37,712 bases of DNA from positions 127,381-165,092 of the forward strand of contig PS015122.1 in NCBI GenBank assembly GCA_048213135.1, in the 5' to 3' direction. Source of the DNA: Reclinomonas americana ATCC 50394. Lineage: Eukaryota. Shown piece by piece: positions 1-33,400 of the stretch. A program made the translations under genes and the position numbers. The notes beneath the pieces are model-generated. The model did not search any database, was not told the origin of the DNA, and was given only the letters and a program-made list of their open reading frames with translations. Each line of letters opens with the position of its first letter. Positions within the stretch are counted from its first letter, which is position 1.

Positions 1-789
1 TATGCATTCAATCGACTCACTCGCGACAGTTGATTGTACACCGACTGGCAGTGGCGCACAAAGTAGATGGTCTTGCGATGACTGGCATCGCTGCTCCCAC
101 TGCCACTTGCCTCGCTCATCTCGCGCGCTTTTGTGATTGGTGTATTTTCGGCTCGATATCCGAACACGACGATGCACGTGTGAAGCACGCAGACTGGCGT
201 GCCCCACTATCGCCCTGATCATGAGTGTTATATATTCTTGCACTCTTGTGTTCACCGTGACAGTTGGCGACAAGTGCAAGTTGCACATTGAAATGTGGCA
301 CGCGTCTGTCGTCATGGTTGTACAAGGAGATTGGTTGTCGATTATTTGGCGCGCGCGCGCGCGCGCTCCTGATCTGCTGTGTGGGTGCGTGGCATGCACA
401 CCAGAAGGAGAGGGGGTGCCACGGGAGAGGCACAGCATCGANNNNNNNNNNNNNNNNNNNNTGTGTGTGTATGTGTGTATGTGTGCAAGCAGCTGCGTGT
501 CTCAAGTACGGATCCGCTTACTCCACTCTCTTACACCTCTCGCGAAAACGATAAAAACCGATCTGGGACGACCGTCCGTTGTCGCTTTCGGCTGCCACTG
601 TCCGGAGTGCGCCGACCGATCGGATGCACGATGGAATCGCGAGTTGCATATTTCTCCGCTGCCAAGGTGCAATGCCCCCTCCGTTGCAAGTCACAAAGGG
701 AATCCTCACTGGTGTCTCACTCTCCTTCTGTCTGTTTGTGCGTCTGCATTTGTGTGTCCGTGTTTTGTTGTTTGCACATGTCTTGGCAG

Positions 790-2179
790 ATGACCAGCAC
801 CAACGCGTCCTTTGTGCAGACCAAGCGGTGAGCTCCTTTCTTCCTTCTCTTCCTCGTCACTAGTTAACCTCACACACTGTGTGGTTGGGGGGAACAACAG
901 ATTCGTCGATGCAGTGCGTCTGTTGAACGAGTTGGAGACTGACGCGACGATTTTGGCGGGCGTCATTACGCACCTGTGCGGAAGCATTCACCTGTCTCTC
1001 GGTGCCGTGACCAAGGACGATGACAGGTGCACACACTCACTCACTCTCACACACACTTGCACACACACACTCTCTCACTCTCACTCACTTGCACACTCTC
1101 ACTCTCCCTCACACCCTTCCCTCTCTCTCCATGCACACCCTTCCCTCCCTCCCNNNNNNNNNNNNNNNNNNNNNNNNNNNNNNNNNNNNNNNNNNNNNNN
1201 NNNNNNNNNNNNNNNNNNNNNNNNNNNNNNNNNNNNNNNNNNNNNNNNNNNNNNNNNNNNNNNNNNNNNNNNNNNNNNNNNNNNNNNNNNNNNNNNNNNN
1301 NNNNNNNNNNNNNNNNNNNNNNNNNNNNNNNNNNNNNNNNNNNNNNNNNNNNNNNNNNNNNNNNNNNNNNNNNNNNNNNNNNNNNNNNNNNNNNNNNNNN
1401 NNNNNNNNNNNNNNNNNNNNNNNNNNNNNNNNNNNNNNNNNNNNNNNNNNNNNNNNNNNNNNNNNNNNNNNNNNNNNNNNNNNNNNNNNNNNNNNNNNNN
1501 NNNNNNNNNNNNNNNNNNNNNNNNNNNNNNNNNNNNNNNNNNNNNNNNNNNNNNNNNNNNNNNNNNNNNNNNNNNNNNNNNNNNNNNNNNNNNNNNNNNN
1601 NNNNNNNNNNNNNNNNNNNNNNNNNNNNNNNNNNNNNNNNNNNNNNNNNNNNNNNNNNNNNNNNNNNNNNNNNNNNNNNNNNNNNNNNNNNNNNNCTCTC
1701 TCTCTCACCTCACTCTGCATTCCTCTTGCAGGCTTCGCGCTGCACTGGATGTCTCCGAAGACGACGGCGACACGATCCTCGACACATGCCGCTACATTAT
1801 CGAGGAGGCCGCGTATCATGCCATGCGACCGGCGGTGTTGAGCGAGAAGCTGGCGGCCGCCGGACTCAACCAGGACAAGGCCGAGCTGTTTGGTGGGGTG
1901 TGGGAGCGCGAGGGAAGGGATGTGCTGGCGGCGTTGCGGTCACGGGGTGTGGGATCGTTCCCGCGTCTCGTGTCGTCGTCGTGGTCGTTGACGGTGCATT
2001 TGGCGTCGGATGGTGTGTCCAAGGTCAAGGATCCGCGCGTGTTCTTGGCGCTGGAGACCACCACACAGCAGGAGCGTGGCAGCGAGAGGAGAATCGATAC
2101 CGAGTTCACAAGGGATGGGCTGGCGGATCTGTTTGCGAAGCTGGAGAGAGTGCAGTCGCAGCTCGACTCGTTGATGTGA
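790..2179 (+). CDS. COMMD10: COMM domain-containing protein 10 (Commander/CCC complex); exons 790-827, 901-1026, 1732-2179
   Basis: GT-AG splicing keeps frame: MTSTNASFVQTKRFVDAVRLLNEL...RLRAALDVSEDDGDTILDTCRYIIEEAAYHAMRPAVL...NQDKAELF...WSLTVHLAS...EFTRDGLADLFAKLERVQSQLDSLM. This parallels recalled COMMD10 motifs (ILEQAVYH, QDKAEAF, KLETIQAQLDSL). Intron 2 contains an N gap but the phases match across it. Confidence 0.9.
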
Positions 2180-2653
2180 TGATGTGCNNNNNNNNNNNNN
2201 NNNNNNNNNNNNNNNNNNNNNNNNNNNNNNNNNNNNNNNNNNNNNNNNNNNNNNNNNNNNNNNNNNNNNNNNNNNNNNNNNNNNNNNNNNNNNNNNNNNN
2301 NNNNNNNNNNNNNNNNNNNNNNNNNNNNNNNNNNNNNNNNNNNNNNNNNNNNNNNNNNNNNNNNNNNNNNNNNNNNNNNNNNNNNNNNNNNNNNNNNNNN
2401 NNNNNNNNNNNNNNNNNNNNNNNNNNNNNNNNNNNNNNNNNNNNNNNNNNNNNNNNNNNNNNNNNNNNNNNNNNNNNNNNNNNNNNNNNNNNNNNNNNNN
2501 NNNNNNNNNNNNNNNNNNNNNNNNNNNNNNNNNNNNNNNNNNNNNNNNNNNNNNNNNNNNNNNNNNNNNNNNNNNNNNNNNNNNNNNNNNNNNNNNNNNN
2601 NNNNNNNNGCGAGGAGATGACCGACGACAATGTGTGTAAGTGAAGCACGGATT

Positions 2654-3062
2654 TCATGGTGTCTTTAATCTCGGCTCTGCCTGGTCGTCATCCGCGCCTT
2701 CATCATCGTCATCATCGTCATCATGGTGTTCTTCGTCGCCCGTCTCCTCGACACGTTTCGTGACGTAGCTCCACAGCTCGGCAAACTCCGCAGGCGGCAT
2801 GATCTGCGTCAGCGCTCTCCTCACGTCCTTGGCCCGCATCTGTCGCGTATCCTCATCCACCTCCACCTCGGCCTCCTCGGCATCGCCATCTGCGGGGGTG
2901 GAAGAAGCGGAGGACGGACCGCCCACGGCCCGACTGGCCACCTGCTGCAGCAGACCAAACAAGACGGCGTGGCATGCCGTAATCGCCTTTTCAGAGATCT
3001 TCAGCTCACCACCGGTCTGCTTGTGCAGCGCCTCGTACAGGATGGCACGGAGATCCAGCGGC

Positions 3063-3097
<35 letters not shown>

Positions 3098-3678
3098 GTC
3101 GGCATCGGCTTCTTCTTCTTCTTCATCGTCGTCGTCGTCATCGTCGTCATCCTCCTCCGGTTCCGCCACATAGTCACCGTCTTCCTCGTCTTCATCCTCG
3201 TCTGCGTCGTCCTCATGATTGTCATACACCTGTCGTTCCACGGCGGAGAAAATCGACTGGAACGGCATCTGCAGAGGCATCGGCGGAGGAGGAGGAGGCG
3301 GCGGCGGTGGCGGCAGAGGCGGAAACGACAGAGGAACACTCTCCCTGCGTGCTCTCTTACGCGTCGGCGACCCGCGCGCACGCTCCTCCTCCAGTTCCCG
3401 CACCAGTCGCGCATTCTCCTTGTGCAAGTGATCACGCCTGCACACACCTCATCAGCAACAGGCAAAATCCAGAGAAGGAGTGGAGACAGCAACTCTTGTG
3501 CCACTCTGCTCAGCTCCACCTCCAGCTGCCGAATGCGCGTCTGTGAGGTCACCGACAACTGCTCATACTGTGCATGCACGCCCAGTGAGCCAGAAAAACA
3601 CAAAAAAAAAGAGAGAAAGAGAGGCGCAACATGAAAACGCAGAGCGCGGATCTCTTCCTCGAGCGCAAGGCGACTCAT
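2654..3678 (-). CDS. About 301-aa protein: N-terminal coiled coil, poly-Pro, long Asp/Glu tract, C-terminal H2B-like histone fold; exons 3678-3631, 3567-3494, 3437-2654
   Basis: Three exons join in frame (906 nt). C-terminal YEALHKQTGGELKISEKAI...LLQQVASRA...QMRAKDVRRALTQIMP...VTKRV aligns by eye to H2B YKVLKQVHPDTGISSKAM...IFERIAGEA...TITSREIQTAVRLLLP...GTKAV. The CDS is well supported; the fold call is moderately supported. Confidence 0.7.
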
Positions 3679-3770
3679 GAATCACAAACAAAGAGCGAGA
3701 AGTCGGAAAGCGTGACAATGGCGCTCGCGGTTGATTGCACTGTCCGCCACTGTCCCCTCAAGTTTGCACC

Positions 3771-4063
3771 ATGGCCGACGCCATTCTCAGTTGCGTTCTC
3801 TCATGCACACACTGCTGCACATAGACAGGCACCGCGTGGCAGTGAAAACGCATTCGATTTCGTGTTGAATGTGTTGTGCATGTTGGGTCATGTCCACACA
3901 CTTGTCTCTCTCTCACTCACTTGCTTGTGCATTGTGTGCGTGTGTGCAGTCACGTATGGCGCATTGTCGCTGATGGCCGTGACCATTGTGGTCATTGGAT
4001 GCCGGAACTTGCAGAAGCAGGTGGTGAGTTGCACACTGTTGATTGTCTCTCTTCCTGTCTCTC

Positions 4064-4104
<41 letters not shown>

Positions 4105-6788
4105 GAGAGTGAGAGAAGAGAGAGAGTGTGAGAGAGAGAGAGCAGGAGAAGAACGAGAGCGGAAAGCGAGTGAGTTGGTGACTTTGGTCAGTTTGGGCAT
4201 TGACTTCAACTGGCCTCCGCCCGTGCGTGTTGTCGCACGAGTGAGACAGTGATGCACTTAGAAAAAGCAGCATTCAGAGCGCACACGACGAGTGTGATTG
4301 CAGTTGTCACAATTGAACACGTGTTACAGGTCGAAAAAGTCGACTCGTCACAAGCATGGCAGTTCCCGTTTGTGGGCGCAGCGGTGCTTCTCGGTCTGTT
4401 CCTGCTGTTCCGGTACTTGCCGCGTGAGTATGTGAATCTGGTGCTGGGCACGTTATTCTGTGTGCTGGGCATTCCCTCGTTGGCGGCGGCCTTGACGCCG
4501 CTCGTCGCCAAGCTCGGTCTGCCGGATAAGTCGGAGCGCGAGTTTGCGTTGTTGGGTGAGTGGGGGATGAGGGGGAAAGGGGGATAAAGGAGAAGGGGAC
4601 AGGGAGGAGGAGAAGGGAAAGGGGGAGAGTTCCTTCTGTGTGTTGTTGTGGAGAGTCGAGAAGAGGTATTCACAACGACCTCTGTCAGCGCTGTTGTGAG
4701 CAGCGAGAGAGTGATGATTGCAGGGAGGAGGTTGAAGTGGTGCAAGTGCGATTCCAAGTGTCAGTGATGAGAGTAAGAGTGGCAAGATAGGTGATCTTTC
4801 AAGTTCATCACTCACGATGACACTGCGCCATCATGTGCGCTTTTGCTTGTGTGAGTGACATTCTAACTGTGTAAACCTGTCAGTGATGAGGGAAGAGTGA
4901 CAGAGCGACGATTACCTTTCTACTCGACGACACTGCACCATCGAGTGTGTTCTTGCGAGATTTTGAATGCGTGAACCTGTCAGTGATGAAGGGAAGAGTG
5001 AGAGGCAAGATAATCTTTCAACTCGACGACACTGCACCATCGAGTGTGTTCTACATGTGTGAACCTGTCAGTGTTGAGAACAAAGAGTGAGCGGGCGACG
5101 ACAGTTGTTCAACTCGAGAATACTGCACCCTTCAGTGTGTTCTTGTTTGTGCAACACGAGTGTGGTGTGAACCTGTCAGTGATGAGAGGGAAGAGCGAGA
5201 GGCGACAACAGTCTTACAACTCTATGAGATTCTGGACGTGTGTGCTTGTCGACGAGTGAGAATTGTCATGTACCTCTCTTCATGATGAGCACCTGGAGGG
5301 ATTCATATGCAAGTTGCCTTTCGGTGTGAGCAACATCCTCATCTTTCCTCTCACTTCCACCAGGTGTCGAGTTCGACCTGTCTGCCGCCGGCATTGTCAG
5401 CTTGCTGTTGGCCTGCGCCGTCTCCATCACCTACATGGTCACGAAGAACTGGCTGGCCAACAACATTTTTGGCTTTGGCGTCTCTGGTATGAACAGCCAC
5501 CTCTCCTCCTCTCCTCCTCTTCTCCTCTTCTTCTCCTCCTCTTCTCCTCATTCCCGCCCACCTCACAGTCGTGTACATTGGCGTCATCTCGCTCGAGTCG
5601 TTCAAGGTCTCGATCATCCTTCTCAGCGGCCTCTTCATCTACGACATTGTGATGGTGTTCGGCACGCCACTGATGGTCACCGTCGCCAAGAACTTTGACG
5701 CGCCGATCAAGCTGCTCTTCCCGCGCAACGTGCTGGCACCCATCTCCGAATGGCAGTTCTCCATGCTGGGCCTGGGCGACATTGTCATTCCCGGCCTGTT
5801 CATTGCACAGATGCGCAGACTCGACGACCACCTGCGCACGGCCAATCCCAAGCGTGGCAACACGTACTACAATGCCACGCTCGGCGGCTACATTTTCGGA
5901 TTGTTCCTGACCATGCTGGTGATGCATGTGTTCCAGAAGCCGCAGGTGGGTGGAGTGGCAAGGGAGGGCAAGGAGAAGTGGCATCTTTCTGTCGCGTGGG
6001 GGTGATCGAGTCAGCACACACAAGTCAGCATTCTCTTGTTCTCGTCTCGATTGTTCATCTCTGCACGCCTCATCGTCCAAGCTTATTCATCTCTGTCCTC
6101 ACGCGCTCATTCAGAGTCTGCTTGTGGAGCGGGCGTCTCTTTCAGTCTTTCCCTCCAGCACGTCTCATTGTCAACAGTGTCTGTCTACGCGCACACGTTT
6201 CCGTCGTGCATCTCGCTGGTATCTCTCTCTCTCTCTCTCTCAGTGTGCGTTCACTGTCCCTCTCCCGTTTGCCTTCTCTCTTTGTCTCGCCCTGTGCTTT
6301 CACCGTTTCCTTCGTTCGCATGTCTCTTCATCCAGGCAGATTCATTCCTGTACGCGTGCATTCGTTGCCCCGTCCTGCATCTCACCGTGTCTCTCGCCCG
6401 CATTTCTCAGCCTGTGCATTCACCGTGTCTCTCGCCTCAGCCAGCAGGCTCATTCACTCACTGTCTCTTTCTGATGCGGGCGTCTTTGCCTGCGTTCACT
6501 TTGTCCGTCTCCTCATTCGGGCGCTCTTTCCCCTGCTTTCATCTCACCTCCCTCCCTCTCCCCCCTTTCCCTTCCCCACAGCCTGCGCTTCTGTACCTCG
6601 TCCCCTGCATCATCATCTTCTCCCTCGGCAACGCCATTGTGCGCGGCGAGCTGAAGATGCTGTGGGGCTACGTGGAGACATCGACCGAGGTGATTGACGA
6701 CACCAAGAAGGACGAGAAGAAGGCCGAGGCCGTGGAGGGCGCCACTGCCGCCGCCGCCGTCGCCGCCGAGTCGAAGAAGGATAAGTGA
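3771..6788 (+). CDS. HM13: Signal peptide peptidase (GxGD intramembrane aspartyl protease, HM13 family); exons 3771-3789, 3950-4023, 4330-4555, 5364-5486, 5569-5945, 6582-6788
   Basis: Catalytic YD (GLFIYDIVMVFGTPLMVTVAK), LGLGDIVIPG and QPALLYLVP motifs, plus FDAPIKLLFP and NWLANN. C-terminal KKDK fits a KKxx ER-retrieval signal. All exon phases are compatible. Confidence 0.95.
4756..5228. repeat. Degenerate tandem repeat, about 5 copies of about 90-115 bp, in SPP intron 3
   Basis: AACCTGTCAGTG(A/T)TGA recurs near 4874, 4974, 5062 and 5170, with a weaker copy near 4757. Each is followed by AAGAGTGA-like and ACTCGACGACACTGCACCATCGAGTGTGTTCT-like blocks. Confidence 0.85.
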
Positions 6789-14993: not shown

Positions 14994-17037
14994 ATGTCCA
15001 CTCGGCCGTCTCGCAGTGCGGCGTCCAAATCAGCGGCCGGCGGCAACTCGCCGCACTGGACGCGCACTGCTGCCGGACGCCCGCTGAGTAAGCGCGCAGC
15101 GGCGGGAGACAGCGACGGCGACTTTGACGATGGAGCTGGAGGCGACGCGTCGTCTGGCCGTGCACGCTCGCAGGCGGGCGCACGACGCCCGTCGTATCCG
15201 CCTCCGGATCGAGGACGACTGGCGCAGGCGATTGTGACGGTGCTGCGCGAGGCTGCCGCGCCACTGACGATTGAGGAGATTGTGGAGCGCGTGCACGCGC
15301 ACGATACCGGGCTCACCACCAAGGCGCACCAGCTACACGCGTTCCTGGGGCGCGATATTGCCTCCAAGGGCACTGGCTCGGTGTTCCATCGAGTGGTCCC
15401 CGGTGTGTTTTCGCTCCGTGAACTCGGTCCGGTGTCGGACGACGTTCGCGAGGCGTGCTTGGAGCGCGCCAAGAATCGCCCCAAGCACGGCGGCGCTCGC
15501 GTCAAGGTCATCGACGTCATTCAGCAACTGATCCTCGCCGCCGGTCATCCTCTGACGGTCGAGCAGGTGCGCATTGCACGTCATCCATCCTCTATATGTT
15601 ATCATTACTTTGTGAGCCTCCCTCACACTCTTGGACGACTGCAGATTGCGTCGCAGCTGCGTTCGCGCGAGGACGGTGGCATCAGTGTGGACACGGCCGA
15701 TCACCAGGTGCACGCACTGATCGCCCGCGACATCTCCAACAAAGGCTCCGGCTCGGTGTTTGTGCGCGTGGCCAATGGCGTGTTCACGGTGCCAAGTGTG
15801 GGCGTGCCGCCCGATTATGTCGTTCCCCGTGCGACGTACACCGCCCCATCCTCGTCGTCCTCCACCACGGCAGCAGCAGGGGCGGCGGCGGCGTCGGGTG
15901 ATCGCGTTGTGGCGTCGCCAAGCGGTGTCGCCAGTCGATCGCTGCAGCCCAACCTGACGTCGCTGGTGCGCTGCATCTTGCGGCAAACCGACGATNNNNN
16001 NNNNNNNNNNNNNNNNNNNNNNNNNNNNNNNNNNNNNNNNNNNNNNNNNNNNNNNNNNNNNNNNNNNNNNNNNNNNNNNNNNNNNNNNNNNNNNNNNNNN
16101 NNNNNNNNNNNNNNNNNNNNNNNNNNNNNNNNNNNNNNNNNNNNNNNNNNNNNNNNNNNNNNNNNNNNNNNNNNNNNNGGAGGAGGAGAAGACGACGAAC
16201 AAGGACGAAGCGCCGAGTGGTGATGCGACCGACGACGACCATGCCATGGAGCACGCGAATGGCCATCGGCGACACGATGATGCTGATGACGACGGCGACG
16301 ACGACGTTGCTGGTGGTGGTGGCGGTCCACAACCAGCGGCCCCTGTGGCGGTCGCGGACCACTCGATGTCGAGTGCCGCGAGTGGTGGCGGCAACGGCAA
16401 CGGCAACAGCGGTGATGGCAGCAGCAGTGGTGGTGGTGGTGGAGAGGGTACTGGAGCGAGCGGTAACGGTGGCCAGCAAGAGAGCAGCAAGACGACGGCT
16501 GCGGCCGTACAGATGGGATTCGGTGGTGCCAACGAGTTCACTCCTGTGCGCCTGGCGCTGCTTCCCGGTGGCCACCTCAGCCACGCACGTTCCGCCGTGA
16601 CTCTGACGCCAGACATGCACACGGAGGTGGAGGAGAGCGAAGACGACTCGGAGGCCATGATGGCGTTGGACGGCGACGGCATTGGTGCGCTGAAAGCGAG
16701 ACCGGCAATCAAAGGGTACGTGTACTGGCGACACAATGCATCGATGCCCACGCATTGTCTGACATCGTTGTCTGTGTAGTGTTCGCTCTTCTTCCACCGG
16801 GGCTGCTGCTGCGGCAGCGGCGGCGGCGGTGGCGGCTGCTACCACTGCGGCCAGTGTGGGTGCAATGGTCCGCGATAATACCGAATGCGAACATGCTCTC
16901 ACTCTGTTGCAGTTGTCGGGGTGCGTAAAAAACAACGCACGTCAGCGTGACATTTTCGTGCAGACTGACTGAATTGTCTTCTCCGCAGGTTTGCCAACAC
17001 CTCGTCGTCACTTTCGCGGTTACCCTCCATGTCGTGA
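14994..17037 (+). CDS. Protein with tandem HARE-HTH (HB1/ASXL/restriction endonuclease winged-HTH) domains and a low-complexity C-terminus; spans a gap
   Basis: Two clear internal repeats: LAQAIVTVLREAAAPLTIEEIVERV...FLGRDIASKGTGSVFHRVVPGVFSL and VIDVIQQLILAAGHPLTVEQIASQL...LIARDISNKGSGSVFVRVANGVFTV. A third (LTSLVRCILRQTDD) is cut by N. Downstream exons splice in frame to TGA at 17035-17037; their linkage across the gap is inferred. Confidence 0.75.

Positions 17038-30140: not shown

Positions 30141-33400
<3,260 letters not shown>

What the first reader, a model, noticed from the sequence alone, without database searches (positions are those of the whole stretch)
2654..3678. Charge-inverted H2B-like histone-fold protein
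Seen: the H2B-like fold (about 2745-3065) is preceded by a roughly 50-residue Asp/Glu-rich tract, a poly-Pro run, a basic patch (TRKRARR) and a coiled coil, in place of a basic tail. It has an acidic insertion of roughly 20 aa (…DGDAEEAEVEVDED) where H2B has the DNA-contacting L2 loop (HYNKRST), and an acidic C-tail. Inference: unlikely to wrap DNA; it could be a histone mimic, an H2A chaperone or a nucleosome-destabilising variant.
Basis: partly seen in the sequence, partly recalled or inferred. Interest (0 to 1): 0.7.

Follow-up and report, generated by a model that had tools for sequence, protein, structure and literature searches.

The report
Acidic orphan H2B-type histone-fold protein
A three-exon gene of an unidentified protist encodes a very acidic protein ending in a faint histone H2B-type fold that is predicted to pair with histone H2A but lacks the residues needed to sit in a nucleosome, so it probably works as a DNA-free histone partner rather than as a DNA spool.

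Summary
The gene is real: three exons on the minus strand (3678-2654) give 301 residues, pI 4.1, and a second haplotype copy keeps the frame with 8 synonymous and 0 amino-acid changes in the fold. The histone fold is invisible to Pfam, PDB and homologue searches. It is supported by a predicted handshake with this genome's H2A: score 0.63, best control 0.01, L1-L2 and alphaC contacts in H2B register. This may reflect likeness to solved H2A-H2B. Sequence favours H2B only modestly (14 of 72 identities; shuffle tests p about 0.002-0.07). Two corrections: the folded core is not charge-inverted, only the tails and insert are; and the L2 strand is kept, the insert replacing the end of helix 2. H4-facing residues (E76, Y83, D68) and the acidic patch are lost, while the chaperone-binding pocket is kept and the acidic tract carries a DEF/Y-like motif. 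Best reading: a non-nucleosomal H2B-class partner that holds H2A away from DNA. A hidden TAF12, CENP-X/W or NF-YB is not excluded. No relatives or RNA data were found. The scan had not seen this sequence before, but noted other acidic histone-fold proteins in this and other genomes.

The parts
3631..3678 (-). Exon 1 (16 codons), start of the coiled-coil head
   Evidence: identical in the second copy L001
3568..3630 (-). Intron 1, GTTGCG...CAG, 63 nt (70 nt in the second copy)
   Evidence: the 7-nt length difference would break a coding frame
3494..3567 (-). Exon 2, middle of the coiled coil
   Evidence: identical in the second copy
3438..3493 (-). Intron 2, GTTGCT...CAG, 56 nt (61 nt in the second copy)
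2654..3437 (-). Exon 3, residues 41-301 and stop codon
3376..3678 (-). N-terminal heptad repeat, residues about 1-61 (spans both introns); a/d positions I28 L31 L35 V38 L45 N49 L52 L56, leucine-zipper-like
   Evidence: heptad listing; dimerisation is inferred, not tested
3344..3370 (-). SPTRKRARR: basic patch next to an S-P-x-R site; candidate nuclear localisation signal with a CDK-type site
   Evidence: sequence; motif meaning recalled
3275..3322 (-). Poly-proline spacer
3065..3214 (-). Acidic tract, 42 D/E of 50, directly before the fold in place of the basic H2B tail; length varies between the two copies
3170..3184 (-). EDGDY, DEF/Y-like motif; Y130 is the only aromatic residue in the acidic tract
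   Evidence: motif defined in PMC6544321
2924..3064 (-). Histone-fold first half: alpha1, L1 (KISEKA), alpha2
   Evidence: helices 5-17 and 25-47; L1+alpha2 against the H2B profile reached by 3 of 2000 shuffles; L1 pairs with H2A L2
2846..2923 (-). 26-residue Ser/Gly and acidic insert replacing the end of alpha2; not named in the predicted interface
   Evidence: 4 synonymous, 0 amino-acid changes between copies
2741..2845 (-). Histone-fold second half: L2 strand, alpha3, alphaC
   Evidence: helices 78-88 and 91-107; against the H2B profile reached by 34 of 2000 shuffles; alphaC residues touch H2A
2657..2740 (-). Acidic C-tail, 15 D/E of 28

Best explanation
A lineage-restricted, H2B-class histone-fold protein that has left the nucleosome. 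Its fold pairs head-to-tail with an H2A-type fold, most simply the cell's own H2A. The resulting pseudo-dimer cannot dock on H3-H4 and is kept off DNA by the acidic tract, insert and tail. The tract's DEF/Y-like motif could fold back on the retained H2B-type pocket and the H2A arginine finger, as free chaperones do, making a self-chaperoned dimer. The N-terminal zipper would dimerise it and the basic patch would take it to the nucleus. It would then act as a sink, buffer or exchange factor for H2A. Shown: gene model, conservation between two copies, composition, residue changes. Modelled: fold and H2A pairing. Inferred: everything about function, localisation, fold-back and dimerisation. My odds: histone fold 0.9; descent from H2B 0.6; not a nucleosome component 0.85; H2A as the true partner 0.4.
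For: Gene: both copies splice to an open frame with intron length differences of 7 and 5 nt; fold has 8 synonymous and 0 amino-acid changes. Complex with own H2A: score 0.63 (runs 0.66, 0.63, 0.63), best of 3 controls 0.01; the mark was reached by 51 of 78 solved and 2 of 108 mismatched microbial pairs, and by 39 of 65 solved eukaryotic pairs without a like complex (71 of 105 in all) and 2 of 126 unrelated pairs; runs share at least 83% of contacts; partner pLDDT at least 68, and 48 beside an unrelated protein. The best-resolved contacts are H2A 65-68 (L2) with fold 22-27 (L1), and H2A 41 with fold 101 (alphaC), the register that the sequence alignment gave beforehand. Both halves score against H2B in register: 3 and 34 of 2000 shuffles; the C half scores better on own H2B (22 of 2000) than on own NC2-beta (1021) or the DPB4-like exon (165). 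H4-facing positions are lost: D68 to G, E71 to Q, E76 to R, Y83 inside the replaced stretch, R99 to T, L100 to Q; H2B E76K alone blocks octamer assembly without DNA (PMC8235166; interface residues in PMC11844553). Chaperone pocket positions Y42, I54, M59 read Y, I, I (pocket in PMC6544321). The genome keeps canonical H2B.
Against: H2A-H2B is a solved textbook pair, so the pass shows likeness, not that this copy binds H2A, and no other partner was modelled. No Pfam histone family is hit at E up to 10. HHalign to H2B is weak: probability 0.1% and 1.6%. The monomer model seeded with H2B sequences was worse (pLDDT 53.9) than the single-sequence model (62.5). No fold search was significant, and the best structural hits of the unseeded model were not histones. 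The language-model neighbours are TAF13, CENP-S, CENP-X and archaeal or viral folds at 0.80-0.87, none a eukaryotic H2B cluster among the rows shown. The halves tested were chosen after seeing the alignment. One aromatic residue in an acidic tract is weak evidence for a DEF/Y motif. No orthologue was found to test conservation.
Confidence: 0.4

Rival explanations
1. It is the very divergent orthologue of a known non-nucleosomal histone-fold subunit (TAF12, CENP-X, CENP-W/T or NF-YB) and pairs with that subunit's usual partner.
For: Family searches of the genome found no TAF12 (only H2B rang), CENP-X, CENP-T (only H3, H4 and CENP-S rang) or NF-YB, although their usual companions TAF6, TAF10, TAF11, TAF13/SPT3 and CENP-S are present. 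Language-model neighbours include CENP-X at 0.86 and CENP-W at 0.80. NF-Y complex chains appear among the weak hits of the seeded model (7 of 44 rows). By recall, D at the start of alpha3 and an L1 one residue longer than in H2B also fit these families.
Against: No Pfam hit to any of these families. The genes are intron-rich and searched exon by exon, so the blanks do not show absence; the CENP-X search rang nowhere, controls included. CENP-X and CENP-W have no alphaC by recall, whereas this protein has one in contact with H2A. The C half fits own H2B better than own NC2-beta or DPB4-like pieces.
Confidence: 0.27
2. It is an H2B-derived scaffold subunit whose true partner is another cryptic, lineage-specific H2A-type fold, for example the acidic three-fold protein noted earlier in this genome, forming a DNA-free histone-like assembly.
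For: Strong divergence of the H2A-facing residues (alphaC G114 to V, A117 to R) would suit a co-evolved partner.
Against: A search of the genome with H2A found only canonical copies and one 84%-identical variant (10 matches), though a cryptic fold would be missed.
Confidence: 0.15
3. It is a true H2B variant that enters nucleosomes and destabilises them.
For: Predicted H2A pairing in canonical register; L1 keeps I-S and L2 keeps basic residues R74, R77, K79; E76K H2B still forms unstable nucleosomes on DNA (PMC8235166).
Against: Several H4-facing residues are lost together and a 26-residue insert sits on that face; an all-acidic tract lies where the tail passes the DNA; whole-protein pI 4.1.
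Confidence: 0.1
4. The domain is an unrelated four-helix orphan and the histone likeness is chance.
For: No database-level match by sequence or structure; the pattern-keeping null was reached by 20 of 300 shuffles.
Against: A canonical handshake at 0.63 against 0.01 in controls; helix lengths and order fit a histone fold with alphaC; all ten best named language-model hits share the histone clan (a third of shuffled proteins also get that).
Confidence: 0.08

Closest known systems
Canonical histone H2B and its divergent variants (mammalian subH2B, H2B.N, H2B.W; 10.1101/2021.09.05.459003, passages seen)
   Same: alpha1-L1-alpha2-L2-alpha3-alphaC layout, predicted H2A handshake, 14 of 72 consensus identities; subH2B and H2B.N also change H4-facing or acidic-patch features and are suspected of non-nucleosomal roles.
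   Different: About 19% identity, below detection by Pfam; acidic tract instead of a basic tail; 18-residue net insert; zipper and poly-Pro head; whole protein pI 4.1.
H2B-class transcription and replication subunits: NF-YB, NC2-beta (DR1), DPB4/POLE3, TAF12
   Same: Single non-nucleosomal fold of H2B type that needs an H2A-type partner, with long low-complexity extensions.
   Different: No Pfam hit; separate NC2-beta and DPB4-like genes exist; the sequence scores better on H2B. NF-YB and TAF12 orthology is not excluded.
Acidic H2A-H2B chaperones with a DEF/Y motif (Chz1, YL1/Swc2, Anp32e, Spt16; PMC6544321, passages seen)
   Same: Long D/E tract with a single aromatic anchor, here EDGDY; the pocket residues that such motifs bind are kept in the fold.
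   Different: Those chaperones bind a complete H2A-H2B dimer from outside and, by recall, carry no histone fold; this protein would supply the H2B half itself.
Double histone folds of SOS, ABTB2, SPT3 and giant viruses (PMC13088155, passages seen)
   Same: Histone folds at about 20% identity reused outside chromatin.
   Different: Those hold two folds in one chain; here only one fold is seen, so a partner in trans is needed.

Membership tests
Histone H2B (canonical or variant) | Three-helix histone fold plus alphaC | tested here: met
   Helices 5-17, 25-47, 78-88, 91-107; alphaC in the H2A interface; models of moderate confidence only
Histone H2B (canonical or variant) | Sequence match to the core histone family (Pfam PF00125) | tested here: not met
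   No hit; locus absent from the 22 matches; only hypothesis-level similarity
Histone H2B (canonical or variant) | Head-to-tail dimer with H2A | tested here: inconclusive
   Model passes, 0.63 against best control 0.01, but a like complex is solved and no rival partner was modelled
Histone H2B (canonical or variant) | H4-facing residues D68, E71, E76, Y83, R92, R99, L100 | tested here: not met
   Read G, Q, R, replaced, K, T, Q; residues taken
Histone H2B (canonical or variant) | Basic N-terminal tail; acidic-patch E105 and E113; K120 | tested here: not met
   Tract of 42 D/E in 50; positions read A, Y, E; patch residues, role of K120 recalled
Histone H2B (canonical or variant) | Incorporation into nucleosomes | not testable with these tools
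   Needs reconstitution or chromatin proteomics
NC2-beta and DPB4/POLE3 | PF00808 match and being the genome's orthologue | tested here: not met
   Locus absent from the 21 matches; other loci hold NC2-beta (L040, L041) and a DPB4-like gene (L046), named from their translations; C half scores 1021 and 165 of 2000
NF-YB | PF00808 match and NF-YA/NF-YC contact residues | tested here: inconclusive
   No Pfam hit, but no other NF-YB was found and no NF-YB sequence could be fetched for a direct comparison (empty)
TAF12 | PF03847 match; pairing with TAF4 | tested here: inconclusive
   No hit to this locus and no other TAF12 found; only H2B rang, 3 matches; TAF4 pairing not tested
TAF6, TAF10, TAF11, TAF13/SPT3 | Being the genome's orthologue | tested here: not met
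   Separate loci over the family cut-offs; TAF13 features are nevertheless the top language-model hit at 0.87
CENP-X, CENP-W, CENP-T | Family match (PF09415, PF15510, PF15511) and CENP-S or CENP-T/W pairing | tested here: inconclusive
   No Pfam hit; CENP-X search rang nowhere; CENP-T search found only H3, H4, CENP-S; CENP-W not searched in the genome; CENP-S is present
Double histone fold (SOS, ABTB2, viral doublets) | Two folds in one chain | tested here: not met
   The other 193 residues are heptad, basic, poly-Pro and acidic sequence; no second fold seen
DEF/Y-type H2A-H2B chaperones | Consecutive D/E followed by one aromatic residue | tested here: inconclusive
   EDGDY at residues 126-130, one such word in 301 residues, with a Gly inside the run; binding not tested

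The most novel reading that the evidence does not exclude
A free-standing H2B-derived protein that carries its own histone chaperone: the fold takes the place of H2B on H2A, the attached acidic tract caps the DNA-binding face of that dimer through a DEF/Y-like motif, and a zipper makes it bivalent. It would be a decoy H2B that controls the supply of H2A, or the missing fourth fold of an all-acidic, DNA-free histone assembly with the three-fold protein noted in this genome. I found no such design in the papers listed by searches.
Probability: 0.25. Interest if true: 0.8.

Novelty: new variant of a known kind. Interest (0 to 1): 0.5.

Why it matters
Known H2B variants stay basic and recognisable, and known acidic chaperones have no histone fold. 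A single protein that joins an H2B-type fold to a chaperone-like acidic tract would be a new way to handle H2A. It also shows that HMM surveys of histone folds (such as 10.1101/2021.11.30.470311, passages seen) can miss such proteins. If it is instead a hidden TAF12, CENP-X/W or NF-YB, it fills a gap in this lineage's gene inventory and is of modest interest. The claim rests on one genome, with no relatives and no RNA data.

Tried and rejected
Homologue searches for the fold were empty. Representatives search: 1 hit, P0001, a 28-fold tandem repeat protein whose summed score is an artefact; rejected. Word-indexed search of longer proteins: 0 of 693 candidates; proteins of near length were not searched with this tool. 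Metagenome contigs 0 of 599 and viral contigs 0 of 22 pattern matches confirmed. Phage tblastn: none. PDB sequence searches: one chance hit on the acidic tail, none for the halves. No RNA run was listed, so no reads were laid; this is no evidence on expression. Foldseek with the single-sequence model: nothing at E 0.001 or better; 18 of 44 rows shown came from nucleosome or histone complexes at E 3.6-7.1, but the top rows were unrelated and such chains are over-represented. VIA-align: best Z 6.9 (rmsd 3.2, 80 aligned) to an RsbR domain; histone-fold chains at Z 4.9-5.6 covered only residues 1-55. A model seeded with 16 H2B sequences had lower confidence, and its fold search is circular and not significant (best E 1.1). 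An attempt to fetch NF-YB/DPB4 relatives with a 43-residue exon found none. In one search the CenH3 piece was cut in the wrong frame and is ignored, and the H2B piece lacked alphaC: there the C half scored 90 of 1000 on H2B, behind NC2-beta (29, out of register) and H3 (56); one search repeated this with the full piece. One mispredicted row (P0100) and one row of other length were dropped, leaving 66 of 68 H2B rows. The overlapping ORFs 2723-3634 (+) and 3001-3678 (-) are shadows of the acidic repeats and of unspliced introns. The three-fold protein of note e1-7398376 could not be located. A passage search of PMC5622370 gave nothing on the DEF/Y pocket. Supplements were not read.

Full report
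Verdict. The finding is a real gene for a very acidic orphan protein with a faint histone fold of H2B type. It most likely acts outside the nucleosome. The partner and function are inferred, not shown.

The gene. The minus strand from 3678 to 2654 holds three exons (48, 74 and 784 nt) and two introns (63 and 56 nt) with donors GTTGCG and GTTGCT. The spliced product has 301 residues, 92 D/E and 32 K/R, pI 4.1. The unusual donor also opens the first intron of the head-to-head neighbour at 3790, and earlier notes report it as common in this genome. A second copy lies on contig C41, 93% identical over 1981 aligned bases including flanks, most simply the other haplotype. It splices to 294 residues at the same sites, with introns 7 and 5 nt longer. 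The 108-residue fold region has 8 synonymous and 0 amino-acid differences; amino-acid differences are confined to the acidic tracts and tail. This supports the exon model and purifying selection. No RNA run was listed, so expression is untested.

Anatomy. Residues 1-61 form a heptad repeat with an Asn at a core position, as in two-stranded leucine zippers (comparison recalled). Then follow SPTRKRARR, a poly-Pro run, a short amphipathic stretch, a 50-residue tract with 42 D/E, the four-helix domain (166-273) and a 28-residue acidic tail.

Is it a histone fold? Standard searches say nothing: no Pfam histone family, no PDB sequence hit, no homologue. The single-sequence AlphaFold model has helices 5-17, 25-47, 78-88 and 91-107 at pLDDT 62.5, but fold searches were not significant and their top hits were not histones. 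The language-model search returned histone-fold clusters and unnamed clusters at 0.80-0.87, below its 0.9 mark, led by TAF13, CENP-S and CENP-X. Targeted tests against 66 H2B folds are positive but modest: 5 of 2000 shuffles and 20 of 2000 pattern-keeping shuffles reach the HMM score; 5 and 20 of 300 with another scoring; HHalign probabilities are 0.1% and 1.6%. The two halves score separately in the expected register, 3 and 34 of 2000 (combined p 4e-4, halves chosen after the fact). The strongest evidence is the complex prediction with this genome's H2A: score 0.63, best of 3 controls 0.01, runs sharing at least 83% of contacts, partner pLDDT at least 68. That mark was reached by 51 of 78 solved and 2 of 108 mismatched microbial pairs; for eukaryotes by 39 of 65 solved pairs without a like complex (71 of 105 in all) and 2 of 126 unrelated pairs. 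H2A L2 (65-68) pairs with fold L1 (22-27), H2A 41 with alphaC residue 101, H2A L1 (27-32) and fold 73-78 are both in the interface, and residues 48-72 are not named. H2A-H2B is a solved pair, so this shows likeness to it, not that H2A is the partner in the cell.

What is kept and what is lost. In the register there are 14 identities to the H2B consensus in 72 positions. The core without the insert is not acidic (10 D/E, 12 K/R; H2B 8 and 12), so 'charge-inverted' applies to the tails and insert only. The insert replaces H2B 78-85, the end of helix 2, and not the whole L2. The H4-facing positions read D68 to G, E71 to Q, E76 to R, R92 to K, R99 to T, L100 to Q, and Y83 falls in the replaced stretch. 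H2B E76 bridges H4 R92, and E76K prevents octamer assembly without DNA though unstable nucleosomes still form on DNA (PMC8235166, passages); Y83, R92, R99 and L100 belong to the same interface (PMC11844553, passages). The acidic-patch residues E105 and E113 read A and Y, and K120 reads E. In contrast the pocket that binds DEF/Y motifs of H2A-H2B chaperones (yeast Y45, I57, M62; PMC6544321, passages; offset of three to mammalian numbering recalled and consistent with the spacing) reads Y, I, I. The acidic tract has one aromatic residue, in EDGDY, 36 residues before the fold.

How it most likely works. The fold pairs with an H2A-type fold. The dimer cannot join H3-H4 well and is shielded from DNA by its own acidic parts. 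The DEF/Y-like motif may cap the pocket in cis, and the zipper may make the protein bivalent. That would be a soluble H2A sink or exchange factor (0.4). The genome keeps canonical H2A, H2B, H3, H4 and a CenH3 candidate, so this protein is an addition.

Rivals. A hidden orthologue of a known subunit (0.27): NC2-alpha, NC2-beta, a DPB4-like gene, TAF6, TAF10, TAF11, TAF13/SPT3 and CENP-S have their own loci, but TAF12, CENP-X, CENP-T and NF-YB were not found and CENP-W was not searched. In an intron-rich genome searched exon by exon these blanks neither show absence nor clear this gene. A lineage-specific partner such as the acidic three-fold protein of note e1-7398376 (0.15) is attractive but untested. 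A destabilising nucleosomal variant (0.1) and a chance likeness (0.08) fit worst.

Comparison with what is known. It is not filed as an H2B: the family match, basic tail, H4 interface and acidic patch were tested and not met. It works like the H2B half of a dimer. Divergent mammalian H2B variants with possible non-nucleosomal roles exist (10.1101/2021.09.05.459003, passages; PMC8015243, passages), as do double folds at about 20% identity in SOS and others (PMC13088155, passages). Acidic stretches are common in histone chaperones (PMC10854748, passages). I also saw passages of PMC10919886, 10.1101/2021.11.30.470311 and PMC5622370 without finding a like protein. Searches were seen as listings with abstract starts; none described a stand-alone acidic H2B-type fold with this layout. 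The library lacks most subscription papers and supplements were not read. The scan's own notes hold no look-alike of this sequence, but 14 findings in at least 9 genomes mention acidic H2B folds, most of the 8 shown being fused doublets (unchecked).

Scores. Novelty: new variant of a known kind. Interest 0.5: the anatomy is unusual and directly testable, but it rests on one genome, predicted structure and an unknown partner.

Noticed in passing
window 3771 onward, + strand: Head-to-head neighbour starting 92 bases from this gene's start; its later exons carry GxGD- and PAL-type motifs of signal peptide peptidases (family recalled, not scanned). Its first intron also starts GTTGCG.
   Followed up: partly
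window 1823-2179, + strand: Last exon of a COMM-domain gene (Pfam PF07258, E 3e-10), converging on the histone-fold gene.
   Followed up: partly
window 14994-16223, + strand: Two or more repeats of a helix-turn-helix-like unit that recall HARE-HTH domains (name recalled, not tested).
   Followed up: no
window about 30150-33130, - strand: Fragments that recall a BIR domain split over several exons (recalled, not tested).
   Followed up: no
L021 and L022 (contigs C10881, C10870): An intron-split H2A variant, 73-86% identical to the main H2A over the matched pieces; a possible alternative partner.
   Followed up: no
L012 and L013: H2A copies with a C-terminal tail ending in SQ-containing sequence, H2A.X-like.
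   Followed up: no
L063 (contig C2, about 238580-241717): An intron-free cluster of bacterial-type ribosomal protein genes (named by recall), so the assembly holds bacterial DNA.
   Followed up: no
L001 (contig C41) against window 462-4584: The assembly holds both haplotypes of this region, about 93-97% identical, which gives a ready test of selection for other genes here.
   Followed up: yes
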